55,042 nt of DNA from contig CAYYLG010000001.1 in NCBI GenBank assembly GCA_964472605.1, forward strand, positions 11,119 to 66,160, in the 5' to 3' direction. Below, piece by piece: positions 721 to 26,467 of the stretch; the first letter of the stretch is position 1; each line of letters opens with the position of its first letter. Source of the DNA: an uncultured Candidatus Saccharibacteria bacterium. Lineage in GTDB: Bacteria > Patescibacteriota > Minisyncoccia > Phycocordibacterales > CAIZIN01. The notes beneath the pieces are model-generated. The model was not told the DNA's origin. It saw only the letters and a program-made list of their open reading frames with translations, and made no database searches. Made by a program: the position numbers and the translations under genes.

Positions 721-727
721 AAACTTT

Positions 728-1334
728 GGGGCCGACCGGTTTCGACGGGGGCAACAGAGATTGGAACTGCAAGCGGAGCATGTCGCATCATCTCCTAAAA
801 CTGTGTGGCAACCAATTAAACGGCGCTGACACTTCTCTCGCTGTTGCTGCCTAATTAGGCGGCTTGGGTTCTAGCCGACCTCGAAACAGAATGGCTAGTG
901 ACTGATGGAAAGTCATCGGACTGAGGGAAAGACCTCTGACGCCCTGGAAAGACTGGTGGTGGATCGGGAGAGGTCACACTCTCTGCCCTTGACGGTGGGA
1001 AAGACCACAACCTTGTTAGTGGGTTAAACTAACTAAGCTTGTAGGGGTTCTAATCAACGGGTTCTCGGACAGGGGTTCAATTGTAATGGTTGCTTTACTT
1101 CGAAAGAAGTATTGAAAAACTGGGTGAATTCAGGGAAAGCTAAGTTCTTTTAAGAATATGCCAATCCTGAGCCAAGCTATCAGTACACTGGTAGAAGGTG
1201 CAGAGACTACTGGAGAGATTAAGTCCTCTTAATAACCAGCTAGAGCGCCCAGCGTCCTAACGTAAAGACGAGGATGAAGAGATAGTCCAAGCCAAATTGA
1301 AAAATTTGGATAACTTGTCCCCTCGGCTCCACCA
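728..1334 (+). ncRNA. ssrA: tmRNA (transfer-messenger RNA), intron-interrupted
   Basis: The 5' end is GGGGCCGACCGGTTTCGACGGGGG. Acceptor 728-734 pairs with 1324-1330, including G3:U70, and CCA is encoded at 1332-1334. The tag reading frame 807-854 gives GNQLNGADTSLAVAA followed by TAA. The T stem AGGGG 1071-1075 / CCCCT 1319-1323 is split by 236 nt. Confidence 0.85.
1082..1317 (+). mobile_element. group I intron (ORF-less) in the tmRNA T-loop
   Basis: Removing it restores the 7-nt T-loop TTCAATT. The 5' exon ends in U (CAAT can pair with GTTG 1089-1092, with a U.G wobble at the splice site). The last intron nucleotide is G1317. There are two GAAA-capped hairpins (1096-1111, 1292-1309). P7-like strands are present: CAGAGACTA 1201-1209 and GATAGTCC 1281-1288. 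A CAGGGAAAG element is also present. Confidence 0.7.
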
Positions 1335-16281: not shown

Positions 16282-17874
16282 ATGATAAAAGGAAAATCTA
16301 GTTTAGATGGAACTCCAATTGAAAAACTGTCTGATTATAGTAGAAAAAAAATAATAAAAATTTGTGATGATTGTAAAATAGAACTACAAATTTCTTATTG
16401 TGATTTAATTTTATCAAGAAAAAAAAGAAAAAGTGATATTGATAGATGTCATAAATGTGCAATGAAAAATCAAAGTGGAGAAAACAATCCTTCTAAAAAA
16501 CAAAATACTAGAAAAAAAATTAGTGAAAAATTAAAAGGTAAAAGTAAAAGATTTAAAAAAGGTTTTAATCCAAGAATACATACAATCAGAATAAACACAG
16601 CAGGTTATGTACTTGTTCATGATTATAAAAATAACAAAAAAGAATTCGAGCACAAATTAATTATGGAAAAAAATATAAAAAGAAAACTAAAAGGGAAAGA
16701 ACAAATCCATCACATTGATGGTGATAAAAAAAATAATAATATAGAAAACTTACTTTTAGTTAATGATGCTTCAGAGCATATGAAAGTTCATTCTCAAATA
16801 GAAAATTTATTTTTTGAATTATATAAAAAAAATATTGTTTATTTTGATAATGAAAACAAATCGTATAAATTAAATCCTCTTATAGAATTGAGTAGGTTTG
16901 AAGAAAGTCTTGGATTTGAAAATATAGCAATAAAACAAAAAAAGCAAATATGTGTTTCAAGATTAGATGTAAATTTGAAAAGTGAAGTAATAAGGGATGT
17001 CTTTTTAGATGTTCCTATGATGGCTGCAAACATGAGTACGGTAACAAATGCTGAATTCATTATTAAGCTTTCAAAATTAGGTGCAATGGGTGTAATGCAT
17101 CGTGCATGTTCTGATGAAGAAATTTTATCTTCTATAGAAAAAATTTCAAAAGAATGTGAATGGGTTGCAGGCTCTATTGGTGTATCAAACAAAGATATTG
17201 ATTTATTTAAAAATATGATTATTAATGGTTGTAATATCATATTTATAGACATTGCACATGGTTATAGTGAAGCTGTTTTTGATATGGCTAAAAAAATAAA
17301 AAAGTATTCTCCCTTAACCAAAGTTGTTGTTGGAAATACAACAAATATAAATATGCTTTATGAATGTTATGAATTTATTGATGCGATAAAAGTTGGTATA
17401 GCTCAAGGTTTTGCTTGTGAAACAAAAAATACTGCTGGTTGTACTGAAAAACAATTTTCTGCTATTTATAAATTTAAAGAAGTTTCTAAAAAACTAGAAG
17501 TTCCAATTATTTCTGATGGAGGAATCAGAGAACCTTCGGATTTCGTTAAAGCTATTGGGGCTGGAGCGAATTCTATCATGGCGGGAAAAATATTTGCAGA
17601 ATGTCCTGAGAGTGCAGCAGAACTTGGAACAGACAAAAATAATAATCCAATAAAAATTTATGCAGGAATGGCATCACAATATATTCAAGAAGCTTGGAAA
17701 GGCGGTGTTAAAGAAGGAACTTGTACTGAAGGTGGTGTTCGGTATTTGTCACTTGGGTTGCCAATTAATAAAATGCTTGAAAAATACTCTGGTGCATTGA
17801 GATCTGGGATAACTTATGCAGGAGCAAAAGATATTAAATCTTATCAAAATAATGTTGAATTTATTAAAATATAA
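16282..17874 (+). CDS. guaC: fusion protein: N-terminal HNH endonuclease domain + GMP reductase/IMPDH-family TIM barrel
   Basis: Residues ~1-190 carry CxxC...CxxC and HHIDGDKKNNNIENLLLVNDASEHMKVH. Residues ~200-530 are collinear with GuaC from its N-terminus (LGFENIAIK, VPMMAANM, IDIAHGYS, VVGN, catalytic-Cys loop GIAQGFACETK, ISDGGIR, IMAG). Confidence 0.75.
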   Translation: MIKGKSSLDGTPIEKLSDYSRKKIIKICDDCKIELQISYCDLILSRKKRKSDIDRCHKCAMKNQSGENNPSKKQNTRKKISEKLKGKSKRFKKGFNPRIHTIRINTAGYVLVHDYKNNKKEFEHKLIMEKNIKRKLKGKEQIHHIDGDKKNNNIENLLLVNDASEHMKVHSQIENLFFELYKKNIVYFDNENKSYKLNPLIELSRFEESLGFENIAIKQKKQICVSRLDVNLKSEVIRDVFLDVPMMAANMSTVTNAEFIIKLSKLGAMGVMHRACSDEEILSSIEKISKECEWVAGSIGVSNKDIDLFKNMIINGCNIIFIDIAHGYSEAVFDMAKKIKKYSPLTKVVVGNTTNINMLYECYEFIDAIKVGIAQGFACETKNTAGCTEKQFSAIYKFKEVSKKLEVPIISDGGIREPSDFVKAIGAGANSIMAGKIFAECPESAAELGTDKNNNPIKIYAGMASQYIQEAWKGGVKEGTCTEGGVRYLSLGLPINKMLEKYSGALRSGITYAGAKDIKSYQNNVEFIKI

Positions 17875-17903
17875 ATTCATTCTCAAATCTTTTGGTGAAA
17901 GTG

Positions 17904-18668
17904 ATGAGTCAAGGTAAATCAGCCTATTATTCAAATGAAGTTGTTCTAGCTCCGAACAATCAGGTTCTTTTTAGAGGTTCTTCTAAAAAGGTAGATTGGT
18001 ATTTGGACAGGGATCTGGCTGAGATTGTAGAAGAAGGACCACCAAGAACCATTAGACTTCTATTTGAACCTAATGGGCCTGGATCTGGTGAAGACAAATA
18101 TTCTTTGTCTGAAAAAGAATCAAGATGTGTTGTATGTAAGACAGAGGAACAACTAACTCGTCATCATGTTGTTCCTATTTGTTATAGAACACACCTTCCA
18201 GAGGAATATAAGTCATACAATATGCATGATGTTGTTCTTCTTTGTGAAGGTTGTCATACTAGATATGAACATTTTGCAACACAATTAAAAAAAGAATTTG
18301 GAGATATTTATGACGCTCCACTTGAAGGAATTAAATCTGCAACTAGTAGAATTGTTGGTTATTGTAGAACCATACTTAAACATGAAGATAAATTACCAGA
18401 AAATATTAAAAAAGAAATGCTTGATGCTATTAAAGAAGAATTTGGTAATAATGATCTTCAAACGATTCAAGAATGTTCTAAGATTGGTTCAAAAGCCTTA
18501 ATTACTCATGGTGAGCTTGTTGTCTCTAGAATGAATGAAACTCCTCAAGAGTTTGTTGAAATTTGGAGAAAACACTTCATTGAAACAATGAAGCCACAGC
18601 ATCTTCCCAATGGATGGTCTGTAACTCGTAGTATCTATTACAACAAAGAAAGATCAAAAAATGAGTAA
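17904..18668 (+). CDS. HNH-motif protein (254 aa)
   Basis: Motif CVVCKTEEQLTRHHVVP...NMHDVVLLCEGCHTRYEH. Confidence 0.55.
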   Translation: MSQGKSAYYSNEVVLAPNNQVLFRGSSKKVDWYLDRDLAEIVEEGPPRTIRLLFEPNGPGSGEDKYSLSEKESRCVVCKTEEQLTRHHVVPICYRTHLPEEYKSYNMHDVVLLCEGCHTRYEHFATQLKKEFGDIYDAPLEGIKSATSRIVGYCRTILKHEDKLPENIKKEMLDAIKEEFGNNDLQTIQECSKIGSKALITHGELVVSRMNETPQEFVEIWRKHFIETMKPQHLPNGWSVTRSIYYNKERSKNE

Positions 18669-19094: not shown

Positions 19095-19361
19095 ATGTTT
19101 GGTATTGAGAAGAAAATTAAAGATCTTATAGCTCAAGAAGTATCTAAAGTAATAGATACTCAAATTGAATATAAAATTAGAGAAGTTATTCAAAAAGAAG
19201 TTAAACAAAATTTAAAATTTGAACTTCATGAACTAGAAAAAAATAAGTGGTATATCAGCATTAAATGGAATGGTGATCTACTAGAAAGATTAGAATTGTA
19301 CTCAGTTCTTTTAGATCCAGATGAAATCTGTAAGATAGTGGCAAATAAATTGGCCAAATAA
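19095..19361 (+). CDS. hypothetical protein (88 aa)
   Basis: GAGGA lies upstream of the ATG. Confidence 0.55.
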   Translation: MFGIEKKIKDLIAQEVSKVIDTQIEYKIREVIQKEVKQNLKFELHELEKNKWYISIKWNGDLLERLELYSVLLDPDEICKIVANKLAK

Positions 19362-19390
19362 CTTGACAGCCATCATTAAGTGGATATGAT
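19351..19390 (+). promoter_or_regulatory. promoter, TGGCCAA-N-TTGAC class
   Basis: TGGCCAA 19351-19357, TTGACA 19363-19368, then a 16-nt spacer and TATGAT 19385-19390. Confidence 0.6.
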
Positions 19391-19416
19391 GAGAAAAACA
19401 TCAAAAGGGTAAGGGA

Positions 19417-20187
19417 ATGGATAAGACAACTTTGGGCGATAGAATGAAAAGATATGAGCAAAGTTCTCGTTTCGTTTTAACGAGAAGAATGCCCGTTATT
19501 ATTCGTATTGATGGAAATGCTTTTCATACATATACTAAAGGTTTCAGTCGTCCTTTTGATGATATTATCATTAAGTCAATGGTTGAAGCCGCAAAACAAG
19601 TTTCATTAAAAGTTCAAGGTTTTAAGGCTGCTTATATTCAGTCAGATGAAGCTTCTTTTCTTCTAACTGACTATGACAACATTGATACTGAAGCTTGGTT
19701 TGATTATAATGTTTCTAAAGTTGTTTCAATTTCTGCATCTATTATGACTGCTTATTTTAATGAAACAATTAAAAATAATTTGCAGTCTTATTTTTCTAAT
19801 CATCCTAAATCGAATGATAAAGAATATGAAGAAGTAAAGTCCTATTTTAATAGAAATGCTGGTAAAATAGCATTTTTTGATTCTCGTGTATTTAATATTC
19901 CAAAGGAAGATGTTATTAATTACTTCAAATGGCGTCAGATTGACTGGTTTAGAAATTCTTTATCAATGTATTGTGGAAGTTTTTATTCCAGTAAACAAAT
20001 GCATGGTAAAAATAGGGATGATCAGCATGAAATGTTATATGAAAAAGGTAAAAATTGGACTACGGATTTAGATAGTCAAAAGAAAAACGGAACTTTTTTA
20101 TATAAAAAAGATAGAGAGTTGATCCAAGATTCAGACTACATTGTTGAATTTGATAGTTTTTATGAAAAATTTGAAGGAATAAATTAG
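19417..20187 (+). CDS. Thg1-like protein (tRNA-His guanylyltransferase / 3'-5' polymerase family)
   Basis: Motifs GDRMKRYE, PVIIRIDGNAFHTY and AYIQSDEASFLL. The 256-aa length is full-length for the family. Confidence 0.75.
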   Translation: MDKTTLGDRMKRYEQSSRFVLTRRMPVIIRIDGNAFHTYTKGFSRPFDDIIIKSMVEAAKQVSLKVQGFKAAYIQSDEASFLLTDYDNIDTEAWFDYNVSKVVSISASIMTAYFNETIKNNLQSYFSNHPKSNDKEYEEVKSYFNRNAGKIAFFDSRVFNIPKEDVINYFKWRQIDWFRNSLSMYCGSFYSSKQMHGKNRDDQHEMLYEKGKNWTTDLDSQKKNGTFLYKKDRELIQDSDYIVEFDSFYEKFEGIN

Positions 20188-20192
20188 ACATT

Positions 20193-20237
20193 CTTAGAAT
20201 CTCCAAAGTACAATAGTATTACTTTGGAGGTTCTAAG
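20193..20237 (+). promoter_or_regulatory. RBS-sequestering hairpin upstream of the LAGLIDADG gene
   Basis: CTTAGAATCTCCAAAGT (20193-20209) pairs with ACTTTGGAGGTTCTAAG (20221-20237) over 17 positions with one non-Watson-Crick pair. The 3' arm contains the GGAGG SD and abuts ATG 20238. Confidence 0.6.
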
Positions 20238-21026
20238 ATGAATAAAGATGAAATAAATAAAACGATAGAACTTTATAGTTCTGGTATTGGAACAAACGAA
20301 ATTGCAGAAATATTAGGTTTTCATAGGTCTAGTATTCAATATAACTTAAAAAAACAAGGAATTAAACTAAGGCATAGAAGTCCTGGCAACAAATATAATG
20401 TATTTTATTTTGATAATTACACAGAAGAAAATTGTTATTGGGCAGGATTTATTTATGCTGATGGGAACGTTAGAAAAGATGGTTGCTCAGTAAATATTCA
20501 TCTTTCTTCTGTTGATTTAGAGGCTTTAGAATTTATAGCAAAAGCAACAAAATATAATGGAAATATAGAAAAATGTAAAGATGGTTCTGTCAGAATTTAC
20601 TTTACAGGTAAGTGGTTTCCGAATGCTTTAAAAGAAAATTATGGAATTGGTCCAAATAAATCTAAAGATGGTAGAATTCCAAAAAATTTAGACAAGAAGA
20701 GTTTTAAACATTTCATAAGAGGTCTTTTTGATGGAGATGGTTGCATTACTATTTCAACAGTTCCTACAATAAATTTTACTTTGAATAAAGAAGATTGTTA
20801 CTATCTTTCCAAGTATTTTTATAATAATTTAGATGTTAAATTAAAGCAAAAACATAAATATGCTAAAATAATGGACAAAGGTTCCTATGGTCAGATTCAT
20901 TACAGTGGAAAAAATGCTAAAAAAATATTAGATTGGATGTATTCTGAATCAACAGAAGAAACAAGGCTTAGAAGAAAATATGAATTATACAAAAAGTTAT
21001 GGTTGCAGAGATTGGGCGAGAAATAG
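20238..21026 (+). CDS. LAGLIDADG homing endonuclease with N-terminal HTH
   Basis: Two LAGLIDADG motifs, WAGFIYADGNV and IRGLFDGDGCI. N-terminal HTH GTNEIAEILGFHRSSIQYNLKK. Confidence 0.85.
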   Translation: MNKDEINKTIELYSSGIGTNEIAEILGFHRSSIQYNLKKQGIKLRHRSPGNKYNVFYFDNYTEENCYWAGFIYADGNVRKDGCSVNIHLSSVDLEALEFIAKATKYNGNIEKCKDGSVRIYFTGKWFPNALKENYGIGPNKSKDGRIPKNLDKKSFKHFIRGLFDGDGCITISTVPTINFTLNKEDCYYLSKYFYNNLDVKLKQKHKYAKIMDKGSYGQIHYSGKNAKKILDWMYSESTEETRLRRKYELYKKLWLQRLGEK

Positions 21027-21282
21027 TGTTCAAATGTATTCGAGGGCTTTCTTTTCACAGAAACAATTGCATGGAAAGAAAGTTCCAGATATGCACGAAT
21101 TGCTTTATGGTATTGGAAAAAATTGGGCAACCGATTTGTCTGATCAAAAAAAGAATGGAACTTTCATCATTGGAGATGAAATTAATTGTTCGGTATTACC
21201 GAACTATCAATCAATCTCAGAAGTAATTGATCCCTTGCTGAGGGGAAAAGAGAAAGAAGATGTTACTACAGAAACTTTATGA
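20980..21282 (+). pseudogene. displaced duplicate 3' segment of the Thg1-like gene
   Basis: DWARNSVQMYSRAFFSQKQLHGKKVPDMHELLYGIGKNWATDLSDQKKNGTF parallels residues ~175-230 of ORF 19417 (DWFRNSLSMYCGSFYSSKQMHGKNRDDQHEMLYEKGKNWTTDLDSQKKNGTF). It is in the same reading phase and diverged at the nucleotide level. Confidence 0.7.
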
Positions 21283-21874
21283 AAGAGGGCTTGTTCAGCC
21301 CCCAAAATTTCTTATTAGCAATATTCACTATATGACTATCATGGGTTCTTTAGCCTATGGTGTTTCTAGTGATAATTCAGATTTTGATGTTTATGGTTTT
21401 TGCATTCCTCCAAAGGAATTGATCTTTCCACATATCTCTGGAGAGATTCCAGGTTTTGGAAGGCAAATTCAAAGATTTGAACAGTGGCAACAACATCATA
21501 TTTTTGATCCTTCCGAAAACGCTGGAAAGGGTCGTGAATATGACTTTTCTATTTATGGGATTGTGAAATACTTCCAGCTTTGTATGGAAAACAATCCAAA
21601 CATGATTGACAGTCTTTATACACCCCAAAGGTGTGTACTGCATTCGACTGCTGTGGGTAATCTTGTTAGAGAAAATCGAGATTTATTCTTACATAAAGGT
21701 GCATGGCATAAATTTAAAGGCTATGCATATAGTCAGTTAAATAAAATGAAATCACATAATCGTCAAGGTGCAGATGAAATAAATGATTTTGAAAAAAATC
21801 ACAACATTTCACCAGATACAAGAATAGAAGAAATTGAAGAAGAAATAAAAAGGAGAAAGTTGGATTTGGTTTGA
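21260..21874 (+). CDS. nucleotidyltransferase (RlaP/PF10127-like), N-terminal fragment of a split gene
   Basis: Motif MGSLAYGVSSDNSDFDVYGF (GS...D.D) and KGAWHKFKGYAYSQL. The typical C-terminal half is missing. Confidence 0.65.
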   Translation: MLLQKLYERGLVQPPKFLISNIHYMTIMGSLAYGVSSDNSDFDVYGFCIPPKELIFPHISGEIPGFGRQIQRFEQWQQHHIFDPSENAGKGREYDFSIYGIVKYFQLCMENNPNMIDSLYTPQRCVLHSTAVGNLVRENRDLFLHKGAWHKFKGYAYSQLNKMKSHNRQGADEINDFEKNHNISPDTRIEEIEEEIKRRKLDLV

Positions 21875-21908
21875 ACTGTGTTTTAGATATAAAAGTTGGA
21901 GGTGTAGT

Positions 21909-22652
21909 ATGTCTAAAACAATTGGAAGTAAAAAAAGAATATATAATAAATTTAATCTTTCAAAAGAAATACTTAAAAAAGAATATAAAAAAATTGGTAA
22001 TTGTAAAAAAATAGGAGAAAAATATGGATATTCTGAAACAACAATAAGAAAGTGGATGAGAAAATTCAATATTTCTTTTAGAAAAACTTGGGATAGAGGT
22101 GGACACAATATATTTCCAATTAAAGGAAAACGTTTTGGAAAATTAGTTGTTTTAGAAAAACAAGAAAGAAGAGAGTTTGACAATACGGAAGCAAAATGGA
22201 TTTGTCAATGTGATTGTGGAAATAAAATTATTACAGGAAGTAATAGATTAAGAAAGGGGTTGACTAAAAGTTGTGGATGTTTAAGGTCTGATAGATTGAC
22301 ATATAATTCTGTTGGAGACCTTTCTCATGCATATTGGTCAAGAATAGTTAAAGGTGCAAAAATTAGATCTTTAGATTTTGATATTACACCAGAATACTGT
22401 TGGGATTTATTTGTAAGACAAAATAAAAAATGTGCATTGACAGGAGAAGATATATTTTTATTAAATCCTTATTCATCTCAACAAACAGCATCACTTGATC
22501 GAATTGATTCTTCAAAAGGTTATACAAAGAAAAACATTCAGTGGGTTCACAAAGCAATTAATAGATTAAAAAACAGTTTGTCAGAATCTGAATTAATTGA
22601 TTGGAGTAAAAAAATTCATGAGTTTCAAAACAGTAAAAGATCTAACGGATGA
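21909..22652 (+). CDS. HNH homing endonuclease with N-terminal HTH
   Basis: GGAGG lies upstream of the ATG. Motifs CQCDCGN...SCGC and SLDRIDSSKGYTKKNIQWVHKAINRLKN. Confidence 0.75.
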   Translation: MSKTIGSKKRIYNKFNLSKEILKKEYKKIGNCKKIGEKYGYSETTIRKWMRKFNISFRKTWDRGGHNIFPIKGKRFGKLVVLEKQERREFDNTEAKWICQCDCGNKIITGSNRLRKGLTKSCGCLRSDRLTYNSVGDLSHAYWSRIVKGAKIRSLDFDITPEYCWDLFVRQNKKCALTGEDIFLLNPYSSQQTASLDRIDSSKGYTKKNIQWVHKAINRLKNSLSESELIDWSKKIHEFQNSKRSNG

Positions 22653-23067
22653 AGAGCTTATTCAATATTATAATATTGCAAAAAGATATAAAAGAGCTTT
22701 TGATATTAAATCATTTAAATATGACAGGAAGTTCGCTTATCATGTTGTACGGCTTCTAAACGAAGTTGAACAAATCCTTATTGAAGGTACTCTTGATTTG
22801 GAGAGGAATAGAGAACAACTCAAATCTATTCGTAGAGGAGATTGGACTCTTGAACAGATCACTGAATACTTCGAGAGTAAAGAAAAAACTCTTGAAGATT
22901 TGTATGCAAAGAGTGATTTACCGCATTCTCCAGATGAAGAAAAAATTAAACAACTTCTTTTACAATGTATTGAGATGCATTATGGTAAACTTGATGCAAA
23001 TACTCTAGTAAGAGTTGATGAAGCTTCTCAAAAGCTTAAACGTATTAAAGAAATACTAGAGTCATAA
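22618..23067 (+). CDS. nucleotidyltransferase (RlaP-like), C-terminal fragment of a split gene
   Basis: YDRKFAYHVVRLLNEVEQILIEGTLDLERNREQLKSIRRGDW matches the C-terminal helical half of the family. The start is uncertain (22597 or 22618) and overlaps the end of the HNH gene. Confidence 0.6.
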   Translation: MSFKTVKDLTDEELIQYYNIAKRYKRAFDIKSFKYDRKFAYHVVRLLNEVEQILIEGTLDLERNREQLKSIRRGDWTLEQITEYFESKEKTLEDLYAKSDLPHSPDEEKIKQLLLQCIEMHYGKLDANTLVRVDEASQKLKRIKEILES

Positions 23068-23068
23068 A

Positions 23069-23791
23069 ATGGGTATTAGAGTAAGTAAAAGAATAGGATG
23101 GGGTTTGTGTGATCTTCAAACTGATGAAGATGGTAAAATTATTGATTCAAGAATAAATAAAGAAGGATATATTTTTGATAAGTATGATGAAAGATATTCA
23201 ATAGAAGGCTATTTTCAATTACTTGAAAAAGTATATCAAGATAGTAAAGAAGATCAAAAAAAATTTGATATTATTCTAGACTATTCTATGATGGATGAAA
23301 TGAAGAAAAGTAAAGTGCAATTATATGATTGTATTCGTCATAACTCAGAATTTGGGTTGGCTAATATTCTTCATTTTGTACCTCCTATTCATGTTGGTCG
23401 ATGGACTAGACATGACGATCAAATAGATTATTATGAAGAAACAATTAATCATGAACAACATCCAAGGTTTCAATTATTAAATAGAACAATCTATCCATAT
23501 GATCATTATATAGATATTGAAAGTTTAGATAAAGATGGATTTCCAACAAAAATTCATTTTTGGAATAGACTTCAAATGTTTCAAACTATTTTTGAGAAAG
23601 ATGTAATCAATAATAATGAAATAAAAAAATTAGAAGAAGTTTTTGGATTTGCTACTAGAGAAGAATTCGAACGTCGTATTATTCCAGCGATTCCAAATGG
23701 TTTAATTTTATTTCTTAAATATGCTAAAATTTTTACAGATGATAAATTTATTTTTGATCTTAGACCAATGATTTATGTCTATTGGGGTTGA
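23069..23791 (+). CDS. hypothetical protein (240 aa)
   Basis: TAAAATG junction with the upstream gene; the ORF is uninterrupted. Confidence 0.6.
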   Translation: MGIRVSKRIGWGLCDLQTDEDGKIIDSRINKEGYIFDKYDERYSIEGYFQLLEKVYQDSKEDQKKFDIILDYSMMDEMKKSKVQLYDCIRHNSEFGLANILHFVPPIHVGRWTRHDDQIDYYEETINHEQHPRFQLLNRTIYPYDHYIDIESLDKDGFPTKIHFWNRLQMFQTIFEKDVINNNEIKKLEEVFGFATREEFERRIIPAIPNGLILFLKYAKIFTDDKFIFDLRPMIYVYWG

Positions 23792-23815
23792 AAATAGAAT
23801 GTAGTGTCGTACTAT
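23788..23815 (+). promoter_or_regulatory. possible sigma70-like promoter (no TGGCCAA element)
   Basis: TTGAAA 23788-23793, then a 16-nt spacer and TACTAT 23810-23815. Confidence 0.3.
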
Positions 23816-23846
23816 TATAAAAGTAAATTATTAGATTGGAAGTTAT

Positions 23847-24689
23847 ATGAACGGAAAAGAAGCCTCCGCCATTCGTAAAGGGCGTATTTTAAAACACAAT
23901 CAAAAAGAAAGTCCAAAAATAAGCCAAAAATTTTGGTATGTTTGGTATCGACAGGGTATCTCAACTCGTTCTAATAAAGAAGAACCGAGAATTCTGTTTC
24001 AAACTTGTTGTACAACAAAAGAATCTGCTGAAGAACAAAAGGCCAAGCTGAAAGATTCTGGCCTTTTTAGAGATTGTGAATTAGGTATTTTAAGTTTTGA
24101 TGCAGATATTAGAAATTTTCATTACAGAAAAGAAATAACTTCAAAAGATAAGGCTGGTTTAAAAGTTTTAGAACTTAGAAATTTTATTGTTGCGGATACA
24201 GAAACTACTGGTTTTGCAAAGTGGGATCAAGTTATAGATTTAGCAGCAGTTAAAGTAGTAGATAATAAAATTGTTGATAAGTTTCAAAGATACATTATTC
24301 CTACTTGTAAACTGAAACCAGATTCTATTAAAGTACATGGACTTACACTAGAATTTCTTCAAAAAAATGGTATACCAGCAAAACAAGCTTTTAGTGAATT
24401 TAAAACATTCATTAAAAATGGAGGACCATTTGTTGGTCATAATATTGCCTTTGATAAAAGAATGATAGAAAGTCATTCCAATAAAGTTCGGGTTCCTATT
24501 ATTGTTGATATTGGATTTGATACTCAAAAAATAGCAGAGAAACTTCTTCATTTACCTGATTATAAACTGGCCAATATAGTTGATCTTTTTGATTTAAGAG
24601 GTGAACTTCAAGCTCACAGTGCTTTGGATGATGTTATAGGCACATTCAAAGTAGCAGATATTATGCGTGAGGTATATAAAGGTGCATGA
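23847..24689 (+). CDS. DnaQ-like DEDDh 3'-5' exonuclease with N-terminal extension
   Basis: ExoI VADTETTG, ExoII FVGHNIAFDKRMI, ExoIII HSALDDV. Confidence 0.8.
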   Translation: MNGKEASAIRKGRILKHNQKESPKISQKFWYVWYRQGISTRSNKEEPRILFQTCCTTKESAEEQKAKLKDSGLFRDCELGILSFDADIRNFHYRKEITSKDKAGLKVLELRNFIVADTETTGFAKWDQVIDLAAVKVVDNKIVDKFQRYIIPTCKLKPDSIKVHGLTLEFLQKNGIPAKQAFSEFKTFIKNGGPFVGHNIAFDKRMIESHSNKVRVPIIVDIGFDTQKIAEKLLHLPDYKLANIVDLFDLRGELQAHSALDDVIGTFKVADIMREVYKGA

Positions 24690-24871
24690 ATTGTCCTGAT
24701 AAAATACAAGATTATGGATTACCTATTTTTTATGATATTTATTTGACAGATGGAACAAGTTGTAAGGCTAGATTTGATCCTCACAGAAATGCCTGGATAA
24801 CACAAGGTAAAAATATTAAAATTTCTACTTTGCAGGTAGTTAAGTGGGAGAAATCTGGCCAAGTTACTTGA
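24686..24871 (+). CDS. hypothetical small protein (61 aa), paralog of the next gene
   Basis: ATGA overlap with the upstream gene. GLPIFYDIYLTDGTSCKARF parallels GKPIWYEILLKNGEVRTAF in the next gene. Confidence 0.55.
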   Translation: MNCPDKIQDYGLPIFYDIYLTDGTSCKARFDPHRNAWITQGKNIKISTLQVVKWEKSGQVT

Positions 24872-24895
24872 CTCTAAAATGTAAGCCTCTATAAT
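24856..24895 (+). promoter_or_regulatory. promoter, TGGCCAA-N-TTGAC class (best sigma70 match)
   Basis: TGGCCAA 24856-24862, TTGACT 24868-24873, then a 16-nt spacer and TATAAT 24890-24895. Confidence 0.65.
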
Positions 24896-24920
24896 GTGTC
24901 AAGATCTCTGGAGGCAAACA

Positions 24921-25136
24921 ATGATAGAAGCTGGCTTTATAGAAGGCATTCCTGCTCATTACACAAGAAATGGAAAACCAATTTGGTATGAAATTCTTTT
25001 AAAGAATGGAGAAGTTAGAACGGCTTTTCCTTCTGCTGAAACAAGGAATGAAATACTAATTGATTGGGTAGTAGCATCATCTCGGACTGAAATAATTTCC
25101 GATGAACAAGTCTCTGGTTGGAAAATGATCACTTAG
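24921..25136 (+). CDS. hypothetical small protein (71 aa)
   Basis: GGAGG lies upstream of ATG 24921. The track start at 24894 lies inside the -10 box. Confidence 0.55.
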   Translation: MIEAGFIEGIPAHYTRNGKPIWYEILLKNGEVRTAFPSAETRNEILIDWVVASSRTEIISDEQVSGWKMIT

Positions 25137-25150
25137 GAGTAAAGATCTCA

Positions 25151-26467
25151 ATGTCTTACAAGGCAATCGTTACAAGAATCACGAATATTGAACCGCATCC
25201 AAATGCGGATAGACTTCGTGTAACAAAAATCGCAGGATATAATGTCATTATTGGGTTAAATACTCAAATTAATGATCGTGTAATCCTCTTTCCTCCTGAT
25301 GGTCAGCTTTCTGAGATTTATGCAGAAAAGAACGACCTTGTTGGTTATGTTGATGAAGCAACTGGTGAACGTAAAGGTGGTTACTTCGACAAGAACCGTC
25401 GAGTAAAAGCAACTAGACTTCGTTCAATGAAGTCTGAAGCATATGTTGCTTCTATTGATTCACTTTTCTTTACTGGTGTGGATTTGACTTCACTCAAAGA
25501 TGGTTTTGAATTCGATGAAATTAATGGGTTCAAAATCTGTGAGAAGTATTATACACCTGCCACAAGAAAGGCAATGGCTTCTGGCAAAAAACTTCGGAAA
25601 GATAATGAACATTTCCGTAAGCATATTGACACTAATCAGTATCGCATTCGCAAGGGCGATATTCAGAAAGGTGCGCTGATTTTTATCAGCCAGAAGCTTC
25701 ATGGTACTTCTGCTCGTGGTGGTTTTGTTCTGGATACCAAGAAGATTCCACTTAATCTTTTTGCGAAGATGTGGAATGCAACAGCAGGAAAATTCTTTGG
25801 TTTTTTAAAACCAAAAGAGTTTACGGATTTCGATAGGCTTATCGGAACTCGTAATGTGATTCTTGATAATCCAGATTCAGAAAAGGGTTTCTACAGAAAC
25901 GCTGGATCAACGGAAGAATTTCGCTTTAAGGCTTTTGATTCTTTCAAAGACCTTCTTCGTAAAGGCGAGATTGTTTATTCAGAACTCGTTGGATTTGTGG
26001 ATGAGCGACTTCCAATCATGCCCTTTGTTACTACTTCAAAAAGTAGCAATAAAGAGTTGGTGAAAAAGTACGGAAAAGAAATGCGTTATCTTTATAACTG
26101 TGTTCCTGGTCAGTGTGATCAGTACGTTTACAGAATTACTCAAACTTCTGATGACGGACATCCAACTGAACTTTCTTATTACCAAATGGTAAGAAGAGCA
26201 AAAGAACTCGGTTTGAAGACTCCGCCACTTATGAGAGATCCGTTTGTTTTCGATGGTGATTTCGAAAAGCTTGATGAAATCGTTGAAACACTTACGGAAG
26301 GTCCAGACATCATTGATGATTCTCATATCAGAGAAGGTGTCGTAATTCGTGCCGAAAACCCCGATGGAACGACTGTATTTCTAAAGTCTAAGTCATTCGA
26401 CTTCCTTGTTTTGGAAGGTGTGGCAAAAGACAATGCAGATTACGTCGATCTTGAAGAAGTCTCCTAA
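25151..26467 (+). CDS. ATP-dependent RNA ligase with N-terminal OB/tRNA-binding-like domain (DraRnl/NgrRnl, Rnl5-like)
   Basis: N-terminal ITNIEPHPNADRLRVTKIAGYNVIIG. Motif I QKLHGTS, motif IV-like REGVVIR, motif V FLKSKS. AGGAG lies upstream of ATG 25151. Confidence 0.75.
   Translation: MSYKAIVTRITNIEPHPNADRLRVTKIAGYNVIIGLNTQINDRVILFPPDGQLSEIYAEKNDLVGYVDEATGERKGGYFDKNRRVKATRLRSMKSEAYVASIDSLFFTGVDLTSLKDGFEFDEINGFKICEKYYTPATRKAMASGKKLRKDNEHFRKHIDTNQYRIRKGDIQKGALIFISQKLHGTSARGGFVLDTKKIPLNLFAKMWNATAGKFFGFLKPKEFTDFDRLIGTRNVILDNPDSEKGFYRNAGSTEEFRFKAFDSFKDLLRKGEIVYSELVGFVDERLPIMPFVTTSKSSNKELVKKYGKEMRYLYNCVPGQCDQYVYRITQTSDDGHPTELSYYQMVRRAKELGLKTPPLMRDPFVFDGDFEKLDEIVETLTEGPDIIDDSHIREGVVIRAENPDGTTVFLKSKSFDFLVLEGVAKDNADYVDLEEVS

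What the first reader, a model, noticed from the sequence alone, without database searches (positions are those of the whole stretch)
19417..21282. LAGLIDADG endonuclease cassette that supplied a new 3' end to a Thg1-like gene and displaced the old one
**Layout**
- The Thg1-like ORF (19417-20187) is full length.
- It is followed by a LAGLIDADG gene with its own RBS.
- After that comes a second, diverged copy of the last ~55-90 codons of the Thg1-like gene (about 21010-21282).
- The second copy is in the same reading phase as the first.

**Similarity of the two copies**
- The protein-level similarity is obvious: DW.RNS..MY...F.S.KQ.HGK....HE.LY..GKNW.TDL..QKKNGTF.
- The DNA has diverged.

**Interpretation**
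- This is not an intron or intein layout.
- It fits a mobile cassette (replacement 3' gene end plus endonuclease) that integrates into the target gene. The cassette keeps the gene intact and makes it cleavage-resistant, and the original 3' end is left as a remnant.
Basis: partly seen in the sequence, partly recalled or inferred. Interest (0 to 1): 0.65.

Follow-up and report, generated by a model that had tools for sequence, protein, structure and literature searches.

The report
Endonuclease cassette replaced a phage gene's end
In an uncultured large phage, a selfish LAGLIDADG endonuclease gene sits inside a tRNA-repair (Thg1-like) gene together with a foreign replacement 3' end, so the gene stays whole while its original 3' end is left stranded downstream; this layout is known from fungal mitochondria, and I found no described phage case.

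Summary

- **Layout.** The Thg1-like ORF (19417-20187) is full length. A free-standing HTH-LAGLIDADG gene follows at 20238-21026. A second copy of the last about 92 codons follows at 20996-21282, in the same frame (offset 1068 nt).
- **Similarity of the copies.** 33/53 aa identical (E 7e-23) and 62% identical at DNA level.
- **The gene is a mosaic.**
  - Up to 19926 it resembles an uninvaded relative, L002, whose continuous gene carries the downstream-type end.
  - From 19927 to the stop it is 81-93% identical in DNA to a different Thg1-like gene, L001.
  - The breakpoint is 19926|19927 (0 of 2000 permutations), the position where the displaced copy begins.
- **State of each end.** The upstream end is under purifying selection (dN/dS 0.11). 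The displaced end shows no decay yet, and its stop overlaps the start of the next gene.
- **Not an intron or intein.** There is no intron signal at E up to 10, there is a stop codon, and the endonuclease has its own RBS inside a strong hairpin.
- **Closest precedent.** Fungal mitochondrial "mORF" gene hybrids (Allomyces atp6; Glomus atp6, atp9, cox2, nad3). Four literature searches found no phage case.
- **Not shown.** Cleavage specificity, and whether the 3' end plus endonuclease moves repeatedly as one unit. Only one phage lineage carries it.

Verdict: a new member of a known kind.

The parts
19417..19926 (+). Native 5' part of the Thg1-like (TLP) gene, codons 1-170
   Evidence: Informative sites here favour L002 over L001 (64:42). 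DNA identity to L002 is 0.87-0.71 at the 5' end. The best protein match of this part is P0003/L002.
19927..20187 (+). Foreign replacement 3' end (A-type), codons 171-256 plus the stop. It completes the functional chimeric TLP ORF 19417-20187.
   Evidence: 72:8 informative sites are L001-like, and DNA identity to L001 is 81-93%. 71/84 aa are identical to P0002, against at most 42/57 to any other of 120 relatives. dN/dS versus L001 is 0.11. All 21 family-conserved tail residues are kept.
20189..20240 (+). RNA hairpin that sequesters the endonuclease RBS (GGAGG 20226-20230) and reaches the ATG. A sigma-70-like -10 (TACAAT, 20209-20214) lies in its loop.
   Evidence: MFE -26.6 kcal/mol, z -7.0, 0 of 200 shuffles fold as well. 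A 19-nt inverted repeat is 95% complementary. The equivalent hairpin, with a different sequence, precedes the 64%-identical endonuclease in L004 (-24.9 kcal/mol, z -4.5). The promoter-like match is a consensus match only.
20238..21026 (+). Free-standing HTH-LAGLIDADG homing endonuclease gene (262 aa). About 20238-20995 is endonuclease-derived. The last roughly 10 codons and the stop (20996-21026) are read from the displaced Thg1 DNA in another frame.
   Evidence: Pfam LAGLIDADG_3 and phrog_4645. Two intact motifs in alignment A2. Family similarity ends at ...RKYxxYxK(L/Y)F. The three-way junction alignment is A3.
20996..21282 (+). Displaced native 3' end of the TLP gene (B-type remnant). TTATGG is followed by a 2-nt gap relative to L002; the open frame runs from TGC 21004 to the stop at 21280-21282.
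   Evidence: L002 reads TTATGGCGTTGCAGAGATTGGGCAAGAAATAGTGT; the window reads TTATGG--TTGCAGAGATTGGGCGAGAAATAGTGT. The best match is P0003/L002 (53/86 aa). 20 of 21 family-conserved residues are kept, with no stop or frameshift. Its stop overlaps the start of the next gene (21260).
21260..21874 (+). Downstream neighbour: the N-terminal piece of an RlaP-like nucleotidyltransferase gene. It anchors the remnant at the native position.
   Evidence: Pfam RlaP E 2.7e-15. phrog_388 profile positions 35-197 of 351. The homologous gene lies downstream of the uninvaded Thg1 gene in L002 (76% identity over 54 aa).

Best explanation
A free-standing LAGLIDADG homing endonuclease gene entered the Thg1-like (TLP) gene of this phage at codon 170|171, inside the most conserved motif (NYF-LW-RxxDW-RNS). 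It arrived with the last 86 codons of a different phage's TLP gene.

**Inferred sequence of events**
1. During a mixed infection the enzyme cut the endonuclease-free TLP allele at or next to this site.
2. The left end of the break was repaired by copying the donor: the donor-type 3' end, then the hairpin, then the endonuclease gene.
3. The right end was joined imprecisely. The join lies within 20996-20999, possibly at the short TTAT shared by the two sequences, and 2 nt are missing.
4. The recipient's own 3' end was therefore not replaced but pushed 1068 nt downstream.

**Consequences**
- The TLP gene stays complete and selected, now as a chimera.
- The presumed recognition site is destroyed in both copies. 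In the upstream copy the right half of the site is changed; in the remnant the left half is changed.
- The endonuclease now ends in remnant DNA read out of frame.
- The old 3' end is an untranslated leftover that has not yet decayed.
- Endonuclease translation is probably kept low by the hairpin that buries its RBS, as in T4 endonuclease genes.

**Shown:** the mosaic structure, both junctions, the origin of each part, the selection on the new end, the intactness of the endonuclease, and the hairpin.
**Inferred:** cleavage at this site, the repair route, the resistance of both copies, and that the remnant is not expressed.
For: - The duplication is real and unique in the window.
- The breakpoint at 19926|19927 coincides with the first base of the remnant.
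- The A-type end is 85% aa and about 87% nt identical to L001, while the 5' parts are only 57% aa identical.
- The B-type end and the 5' part share the same best relative, L002. Its gene is continuous, has no endonuclease, and is followed by the same RlaP-like gene.
- The stop of B overlaps the RlaP start.
- dN/dS of the A end is 0.11.
- B is undecayed.
- The endonuclease is full length with both catalytic motifs.
- Its closest relatives (64% and 51% identical) are free-standing and intergenic in unrelated contexts, so the enzyme family is mobile.
- The insertion point lies in residues that are 97-100% conserved in 117 TLPs, the usual choice of homing endonucleases.
- No intron signal at E up to 10.
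- The RBS hairpin is conserved in L004. T4-type hairpin control of endonuclease genes is described in PMC2988022.
- The same architecture, with biochemical proof of mobility, is described for fungal mitochondria in PMC3630166.
Against: - No near-identical phage without the cassette was found. The uninvaded comparator L002 is only 62-68% identical in protein, so "native" rests on best-hit congruence, synteny and junction geometry, not on a before-and-after pair.
- The remnant's lead over other relatives is modest (score 295 for P0003 against 273 for the next).
- The cassette occurs in one phage population only.
- The A-type end occurs elsewhere only in L001, where the 52 nt after the stop are unrelated to the hairpin and endonuclease.
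- None of 80 IMG/VR loci with endonucleases of this family shows a target-gene duplication.
- Nothing shows enzyme activity or its site.
- The undecayed remnant could also mean it is still used.
Confidence: 0.8

Rival explanations
1. Reverse polarity. The upstream (A-type) end is native to this phage, and the mobile unit was the endonuclease plus a foreign B-type gene fragment inserted after an intact gene. L001 would then be the recombinant that acquired an A-type end.
For: The sharp identity change between the window and L001 at codon 171 shows a recombination in one of the two lineages but does not say which. L001 carries the A-type end without this endonuclease directly behind it.
Against: - The 5' part and the B end share the same nearest relative, L002, at similar divergence (pN 0.225 and 0.26). 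The A end is more distant from L002 (pN 0.32), and its distal 30 residues do not align with the L002 tail.
- The stop of B overlaps the start of the syntenic RlaP-like gene, as expected of a native gene end.
- This model needs two independent events at the same codon.
Confidence: 0.07
2. The 3' end was duplicated in place, the two copies diverged, and the endonuclease was inserted between them later. No foreign DNA was involved.
For: The two copies are in the same frame, separated by an exact multiple of three (1068 nt).
Against: - The A end is about 87% identical in DNA to L001 but only 62% to B.
- A and B have different distal tails, each matching a different natural TLP subtype.
- The endonuclease's own 3' end is fused directly to the start of B.
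Confidence: 0.03
3. The intervening 1.07 kb is removed, or bypassed, at RNA or protein level (intron, intein, or recoding), so that the 5' part is expressed with the downstream end.
For: The downstream copy is in the same frame as the gene and is undecayed. A true group I intron exists elsewhere in the window.
Against: - No group I or II intron signal even at E up to 10 in 19300-21400.
- An in-frame stop lies at 20185-20187, after a complete and selected C-terminus (dN/dS 0.11).
- The endonuclease is in another frame with its own RBS, and Pfam finds no Hint/intein domain.
Confidence: 0.02
4. This adds to the main model rather than excluding it. The displaced end is retained because it still does something: for example as the 100-codon ORF 20980-21282, or as the translated or structured leader that the overlapping RlaP-like gene start depends on.
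For: 92 codons are open in 31% GC DNA, and 20 of 21 conserved residues are kept. An ATG lies at 20980 in frame. There is a 23-nt overlap with the next gene. In Glomus some displaced C*-termini are transcribed (PMC3630166).
Against: No convincing RBS precedes 20980. Lack of decay is equally explained by a recent insertion: all carriers are 99.9-100% identical. A 90-residue C-terminal fragment of a TLP has no known independent role (my knowledge).
Confidence: 0.1

Closest known systems
Mobile ORF elements (mORFs) that make gene hybrids in fungal mitochondria: Allomyces macrogynus atp6 (Paquin et al. 1994, as cited in PMC3630166); Glomus sp. atp6, atp9, cox2, nad3; Rhizopus oryzae atp9; Mortierella verticillata cox2
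   Same: The order of parts is the same: gene core, inserted foreign C-terminus, endonuclease ORF (LAGLIDADG in most cases), displaced native C*-terminus. The native end resembles the uninvaded relative and the inserted end resembles another lineage (PMC3630166; here).
   Different: The host is a double-stranded DNA phage, not an organelle. The target is an RNA-repair TLP gene. The endonuclease is translated separately from an RBS buried in a hairpin, whereas in Glomus atp6 and nad3 the mORF is in phase with the host gene (in atp9 and cox2 only the inserted C-terminus is listed as in phase). It carries an N-terminal HTH domain (phrog_4645 family). Mobility and cleavage are proven for Allomyces and untested here.
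Intronless homing by free-standing endonucleases of T4-like phages (SegB, SegF, SegG, MobE and others)
   Same: The endonuclease is free-standing and sits next to a conserved gene. Spread would occur by double-strand-break repair with co-conversion of the donor flank. RBS-sequestering hairpin control is shared (PMC2988022; hairpin here).
   Different: In T4-type homing the recipient sequence is replaced, not kept as a displaced duplicate. Those enzymes are GIY-YIG or HNH, not LAGLIDADG (my knowledge, plus PMC2988022, whose text never mentions LAGLIDADG).
Genes in pieces made by endonuclease insertion (Aeromonas phage Aeh1 nrdA split by mobE)
   Same: A free-standing endonuclease gene lies inside a coding sequence with no intron or intein. 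The neighbouring RlaP-like gene of this window is itself split this way by an HNH gene.
   Different: In the Thg1-like gene the coding sequence is not split. It is completed by an imported end, so a single full-length protein is made.
Group I intron-encoded and intein-encoded LAGLIDADG endonucleases
   Same: Same enzyme superfamily, and the same logic: colonise a conserved coding site without destroying the host gene.
   Different: There is no ribozyme and no in-frame protein-splicing domain. Host gene function is preserved by a replacement gene end, not by splicing.

Membership tests
LAGLIDADG homing endonuclease (two-motif, single-chain) | Two LAGLIDADG motifs, each with a conserved acidic residue, in one polypeptide | tested here: met
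   YWAGFIYADGN and FIRGLFDGDGC are present. Y67-G70, A74-G76, R161-G162 and D165-G168 are invariant in 29 homologues. Pfam LAGLIDADG_3 E 1.4e-9; phrog_4645 E 1.6e-42.
LAGLIDADG homing endonuclease (two-motif, single-chain) | Site-specific cleavage of the endonuclease-free allele at or near the insertion site | not testable with these tools
   Needs the enzyme and a substrate. Only the geometry (both junctions at codon 170|171) points to the site.
Thg1/TLP 3'-5' nucleotidyltransferase | Full-length Thg1 fold, including the C-terminal region | tested here: met
   Pfam Thg1 E 4e-29. PDB 4KGK E 2.5e-48, with residues 151-231 aligned to 125-205. All 21 conserved tail residues are present in the A-type end.
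mORF-type gene hybrid (endonuclease with replacement C-terminus) | The host gene is intact but chimeric, and the end upstream of the endonuclease is of foreign type | tested here: met
   Breakpoint 19926|19927, 0 of 2000 permutations. The A end is 81-93% identical in DNA to L001, against 50-80% upstream.
mORF-type gene hybrid (endonuclease with replacement C-terminus) | The native C-terminus is displaced downstream of the endonuclease and matches the uninvaded relative | tested here: met
   The remnant 20996-21282 is best matched by P0003/L002, whose gene is continuous. The comparator is distant (62% aa), unlike the 91-100% seen in the fungal cases.
mORF-type gene hybrid (endonuclease with replacement C-terminus) | The element is mobile as a unit: the same end plus endonuclease occurs in independent genomes, or transfer is demonstrated | tested here: inconclusive
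   All carriers are one population. L001 has the A-type end but not this endonuclease in the 52 nt available. No further copy was found in IMG/VR, JGI metagenomes or GTDB genomes.
Group I or II intron | Ribozyme secondary structure flanking or containing the endonuclease ORF | tested here: not met
   No intron hit in 19300-21400 at E up to 10, although the same search finds a 109-bit group I intron at 1068-1309.
Intein | In-frame insertion without stop codons, with Hint splicing blocks | tested here: not met
   Stop at 20185-20187; the endonuclease is in a different frame with its own RBS; no Hint/intein domain in Pfam.

The most novel reading that the evidence does not exclude
The replacement gene end plus endonuclease is a self-contained class of mobile cassette in phages. 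It would be a third way, besides introns and inteins, for homing endonucleases to colonise conserved coding sequences of viruses, and it would swap C-terminal gene segments between unrelated phages as it moves. The shared A-type end in L001 and the window, on otherwise divergent TLP genes and with the breakpoint at one codon, would then record two independent visits of the cassette. The undecayed remnant might be kept because the downstream RlaP-like gene depends on it.
Probability: 0.25. Interest if true: 0.65.

Novelty: new member of a known kind. Interest (0 to 1): 0.5.

Why it matters
**Endonuclease biology.** It shows that a phage homing endonuclease can settle inside a conserved coding sequence without an intron, an intein or a gene split, by bringing a spare gene end. 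The by-product is a chimeric but selected protein, that is, endonuclease-driven exchange of gene segments between phages.

**Annotation.** Gene callers report the remnant as a 100-aa hypothetical gene, and the chimera hides a horizontal transfer.

**Local contrast.** The next gene is split by an HNH endonuclease, and a guaB/guaC-like gene carries an in-frame HNH at its start. One 7-kb stretch therefore displays three different outcomes of endonuclease invasion, which makes this phage a compact natural system for comparing them.

**Possible use.** The enzyme and its inferred 20-30 bp site in a conserved TLP motif could serve as a new rare-cutting nuclease if it is active.

Tried and rejected
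- **A third protein-database search with the 86-aa A-type end alone** returned nothing, because the query shared too few 5-residue words. That search was wasted.
- **Searches for further A-type ends** all failed to find the distinctive distal tail. They covered IMG/VR, JGI metagenomes and GTDB genomes. The best were generic TLP tails at 61-67% identity.
- **A general scan of 80 IMG/VR loci with endonucleases of this family** looked for similarity between upstream and downstream flanks.
  - L044 looked like a second example: two 200-aa structural genes flank the endonuclease. Endonuclease-free relatives (L118-L120, L122) already carry both paralogues in tandem, so the case was rejected.
  - L104 and L106 are tandem endonuclease genes. 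In L104 they appear to sit inside an interrupted gene. The flank similarity found there is endonuclease to endonuclease.
- **The 64%- and 51%-identical endonucleases (L004, L005, L006)** are intergenic, with no Thg1 gene and no duplication.
- **A search for an endonuclease-free variant of the same phage**, through exact matches to the two neighbouring proteins, found only the invaded layout. Several contigs break inside the Thg1 and endonuclease genes. I attribute this to k-mers shared with other TLP or endonuclease genes, not to a second allele; this attribution is untested.
- **GenBank phages hold no close relative of the region.** Only short Thg1 matches at 67-85% were found.
- **Apparent similarity of the 25 nt upstream of the remnant to the native gene** (GAAGAAAATATGAATTAT against GAAGATGTTGTAAATTAC) was rejected. 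That stretch is nearly identical in the L004 endonuclease gene, so it is endonuclease-derived.
Full report
**What is there**

All long ORFs in the window are on the + strand. The DNA is AT-rich (31% GC) and phage-like. It encodes an RNA ligase, a helicase, a NUDIX protein, an RNase T-like exonuclease, several HNH genes, a tRNA-Met and a tmRNA. The same sequence occurs at 99.9-100% identity in at least 12 metagenomic contigs, up to 206,854 bp long, from ENA and Logan assemblies. It is therefore a real, large, uncultured phage. GenBank phages hold no close relative.

The parts at the finding are:
- **19417-20187:** a 256-aa Thg1-like protein (TLP). Pfam Thg1 E 4e-29; phrog_4717 E 1.5e-73; nearest solved structure is the Bacillus thuringiensis TLP 4KGK, E 2.5e-48.
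- **20238-21026:** a 262-aa protein with an N-terminal helix-turn-helix and two intact LAGLIDADG motifs.
- **Frame of 20980-21282:** a second copy of the TLP C-terminus.

**Check of the observation**

- The two copies share 33/53 residues (E 7e-23).
- This is the only intra-window protein duplication of its kind.
- At DNA level the shared core is 62% identical, with a 77-nt stretch at 71% identity and a spacing of exactly 1068 nt. The copies are therefore in the same frame.
The remnant starts slightly earlier than stated, at 20996-21004.

**Origin of each part**

Among 4094 TLP homologues two are informative.

| Relative | Context | 5' part vs window | Tail |
|---|---|---|---|
| P0003 / L002 | Continuous 247-aa gene, no endonuclease; followed by a small ORF and then the homologue of the window's next gene (RlaP-like, 76% identity) | Best match, 107/157 aa | Best match to the downstream copy, 53/86 aa |
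| P0002 / L001 | 1076-bp contig | 97/170 aa | Upstream-type, 71/84 aa. No other relative exceeds 42/57, and none shares the distal ...DSDYIVEFDSFYEKFEGIN |

In a codon alignment, window-to-L001 DNA identity is 0.5-0.8 through most of the gene. It rises to 0.81-0.93 from codon 171 to the stop. Window-to-L002 identity is highest at the 5' end and falls to 0.5-0.7 in the tail.

Of 186 informative sites, 64:42 favour L002 upstream and 72:8 favour L001 downstream. The maximum chi-square breakpoint lies between 19926 and 19927, and 0 of 2000 permutations reach the observed value.

**The junctions**

- **Left junction.** The window reads GAA GAT GTT ATT AAT TAC TTC | AAA TGG CGT CAG ATT GAC. It is L002-like up to TTC and L001-like afterwards.
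- **Right junction.** The endonuclease gene is alignable to its 64% relative in L004 up to ...TAC AAA AAG TTAT. From TTATG onward the window matches the uninvaded L002 gene (TTATGGCGTTGCAGAGATTGGGCAAGAAATAGTGT) except for a 2-nt gap.

The displaced copy therefore begins at the very codon (L171-W172) where the foreign end begins. This is a clean 1.07-kb insertion at one point of the native gene.

That point lies just before D-W-x-R-N-S, residues that are 97-100% conserved in 117 TLPs.

The endonuclease family's conserved sequence ends at RKYxxYxK(L/Y)F. The last ten codons and the stop of this ORF (LWLQRLGEK*) are Thg1 DNA read in another frame.

**State of the parts**

- **Upstream end.** It has evolved under purifying selection since it diverged from L001 (dN 0.074, dS 0.69, ratio 0.11). 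It keeps all 21 family-conserved tail residues, so it is the working C-terminus.
- **Remnant.** It keeps 20 of 21 conserved residues, has no stop or frameshift in 92 codons, and is as similar to outgroup TLPs as functional tails are. Either the insertion is recent or the remnant is still constrained. Its stop overlaps the start of the RlaP-like gene by 23 nt, as expected for a native gene end.
- **Endonuclease.** It is full length with invariant catalytic motifs.
- **RBS hairpin.** The RBS (GGAGG, 20226-20230) and the ATG lie in the 3' arm of a 19-bp hairpin (-26.6 kcal/mol, z -7.0).
  - The L004 relative has an equivalent hairpin built from a different sequence (z -4.5).
  - This is the arrangement that limits translation of T4 endonuclease genes (PMC2988022).
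  - A sigma-70-like -10 lies in the loop, but that is only a consensus match.

**What it is not**

- No intron is detected in 19300-21400 even at E up to 10. The same library finds a 109-bit group I intron at 1068-1309.
- A stop codon follows a complete, selected C-terminus.
- The endonuclease is in another frame with its own RBS.
- Pfam finds no Hint/intein domain.
- In-place duplication is excluded, because the upstream end is far closer to L001 (about 87% nt) than to the remnant (62%).

**Most likely mechanism**

Steps 1-3 are inferred.
1. The enzyme cut the endonuclease-free TLP allele at or near codon 170|171 during a mixed infection.
2. The left end was repaired from the donor. This copied the donor-type gene end, the hairpin and the endonuclease gene.
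3. The right end was joined without proper homology, so the recipient's own end survived downstream.

The result is a gene that still makes a full TLP, and two copies of the site that are each half-changed and so presumably uncuttable.

Two versions cannot be separated with the data:
- a one-off event, with an L001-like phage as donor;
- homing of a pre-formed cassette, which afterwards has homology on both sides (gene core and remnant).

L001 carries the upstream-type end, but the 52 nt after its stop begin a different ORF (METLGIKPGKY...). This shows that the end can exist without this endonuclease directly behind it.

**Comparison with what is known**

The architecture matches the mobile ORF elements that create gene hybrids in fungal mitochondria: gene core, inserted foreign C-terminus, LAGLIDADG or GIY-YIG ORF, displaced native C*-terminus. 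It was first shown for Allomyces macrogynus atp6 and later for Glomus atp6, atp9, cox2 and nad3, Rhizopus atp9 and Mortierella cox2 (PMC3630166).

Four literature searches found no phage example. The T4 review does not contain the word stem "duplicat". In the ICP1 nuclease survey that stem occurs only for changes within endonuclease genes, not for duplicated target-gene ends.

In 80 IMG/VR loci carrying endonucleases of the same family, none has a duplicated target end (the one candidate was rejected).

I therefore file it as a new member of a known kind: a first or rare phage case, not a new mechanism.

**Limits**

- There is no before-and-after pair of near-identical genomes, and the uninvaded comparator is distant.
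- Only one population carries the cassette.
- Enzyme activity, its site, and expression of the remnant are untested.

Noticed in passing
window 21260-23067: The gene next door is split by another endonuclease. ORF 21260-21874 matches positions 35-197 of the nucleotidyltransferase profile phrog_388 (351 positions; Pfam RlaP), and ORF 22597-23067 matches positions 213-338. An HTH-HNH endonuclease ORF (21909-22652) lies between them. No intron signal at E up to 1. This is a genes-in-pieces layout like Aeh1 nrdA/mobE, directly beside the end-replacement layout.
   Followed up: partly
window 727-1333: A phage-encoded tmRNA gene is interrupted in its T-loop by a group I intron. The tmRNA body (Rfam match 735-1083, 62 bits) stops at GGACAGGGGTTCAATT. 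The intron (109 bits) follows to about 1317. The 3' exon CCCCTCGGCTCCACCA (about 1318-1333) pairs with the 5' GGGGCCG. ARAGORN does not call the gene. The tag appears to end ...SLAVAA.
   Followed up: partly
window 16282-17874: A 530-aa ORF has an HNH_3 endonuclease domain (aa 138-163) fused in frame to the N-terminus of an IMPDH/GMP-reductase domain (aa 210-530). There is no stop and no Met between them. It may be a third outcome of endonuclease invasion, at a gene's 5' end.
   Followed up: partly
window 17892-18668 and 1399-1911: There are more endonuclease-like ORFs. A 258-aa protein has weak HNH matches (C-x2-C ... H-H ... C-x2-C-H). A 170-aa ORF just after the tmRNA intron resembles the C-terminal part of the HNH gene at 21909-22652 (40% identity over 80 aa). 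The window is unusually rich in homing endonuclease genes.
   Followed up: no
window 19417-26467: The invaded genes belong to an apparent RNA-repair cluster: the Thg1-like 3'-5' polymerase, the RlaP-like nucleotidyltransferase, an RNase T-like exonuclease (23847-24689) and an RNA ligase (25118-26467).
   Followed up: no
L104 1325-4440; L106 1439-5136; L044 914-3732: In other viral contigs, endonuclease genes of the same HTH-LAGLIDADG family occur in tandem arrays of two or three. In L104 the pair appears to interrupt a gene: a 99-aa ORF and a 206-aa ORF flank the second endonuclease. I did not test whether these are two halves of one gene, nor what the flanking ORFs encode. In L044 two endonuclease copies are fused into one 499-aa ORF.
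   Followed up: partly
L127, L129, L008, L009 (window about 19662-19664); L128, L130, L133 (window about 20318-20372): Contigs from several samples and both assemblers end or start at the same two places: inside the most conserved part of the Thg1 gene, and in the HTH region of the endonuclease gene. This is probably graph branching caused by related genes in the same samples, but a co-existing variant allele is not excluded.
   Followed up: no
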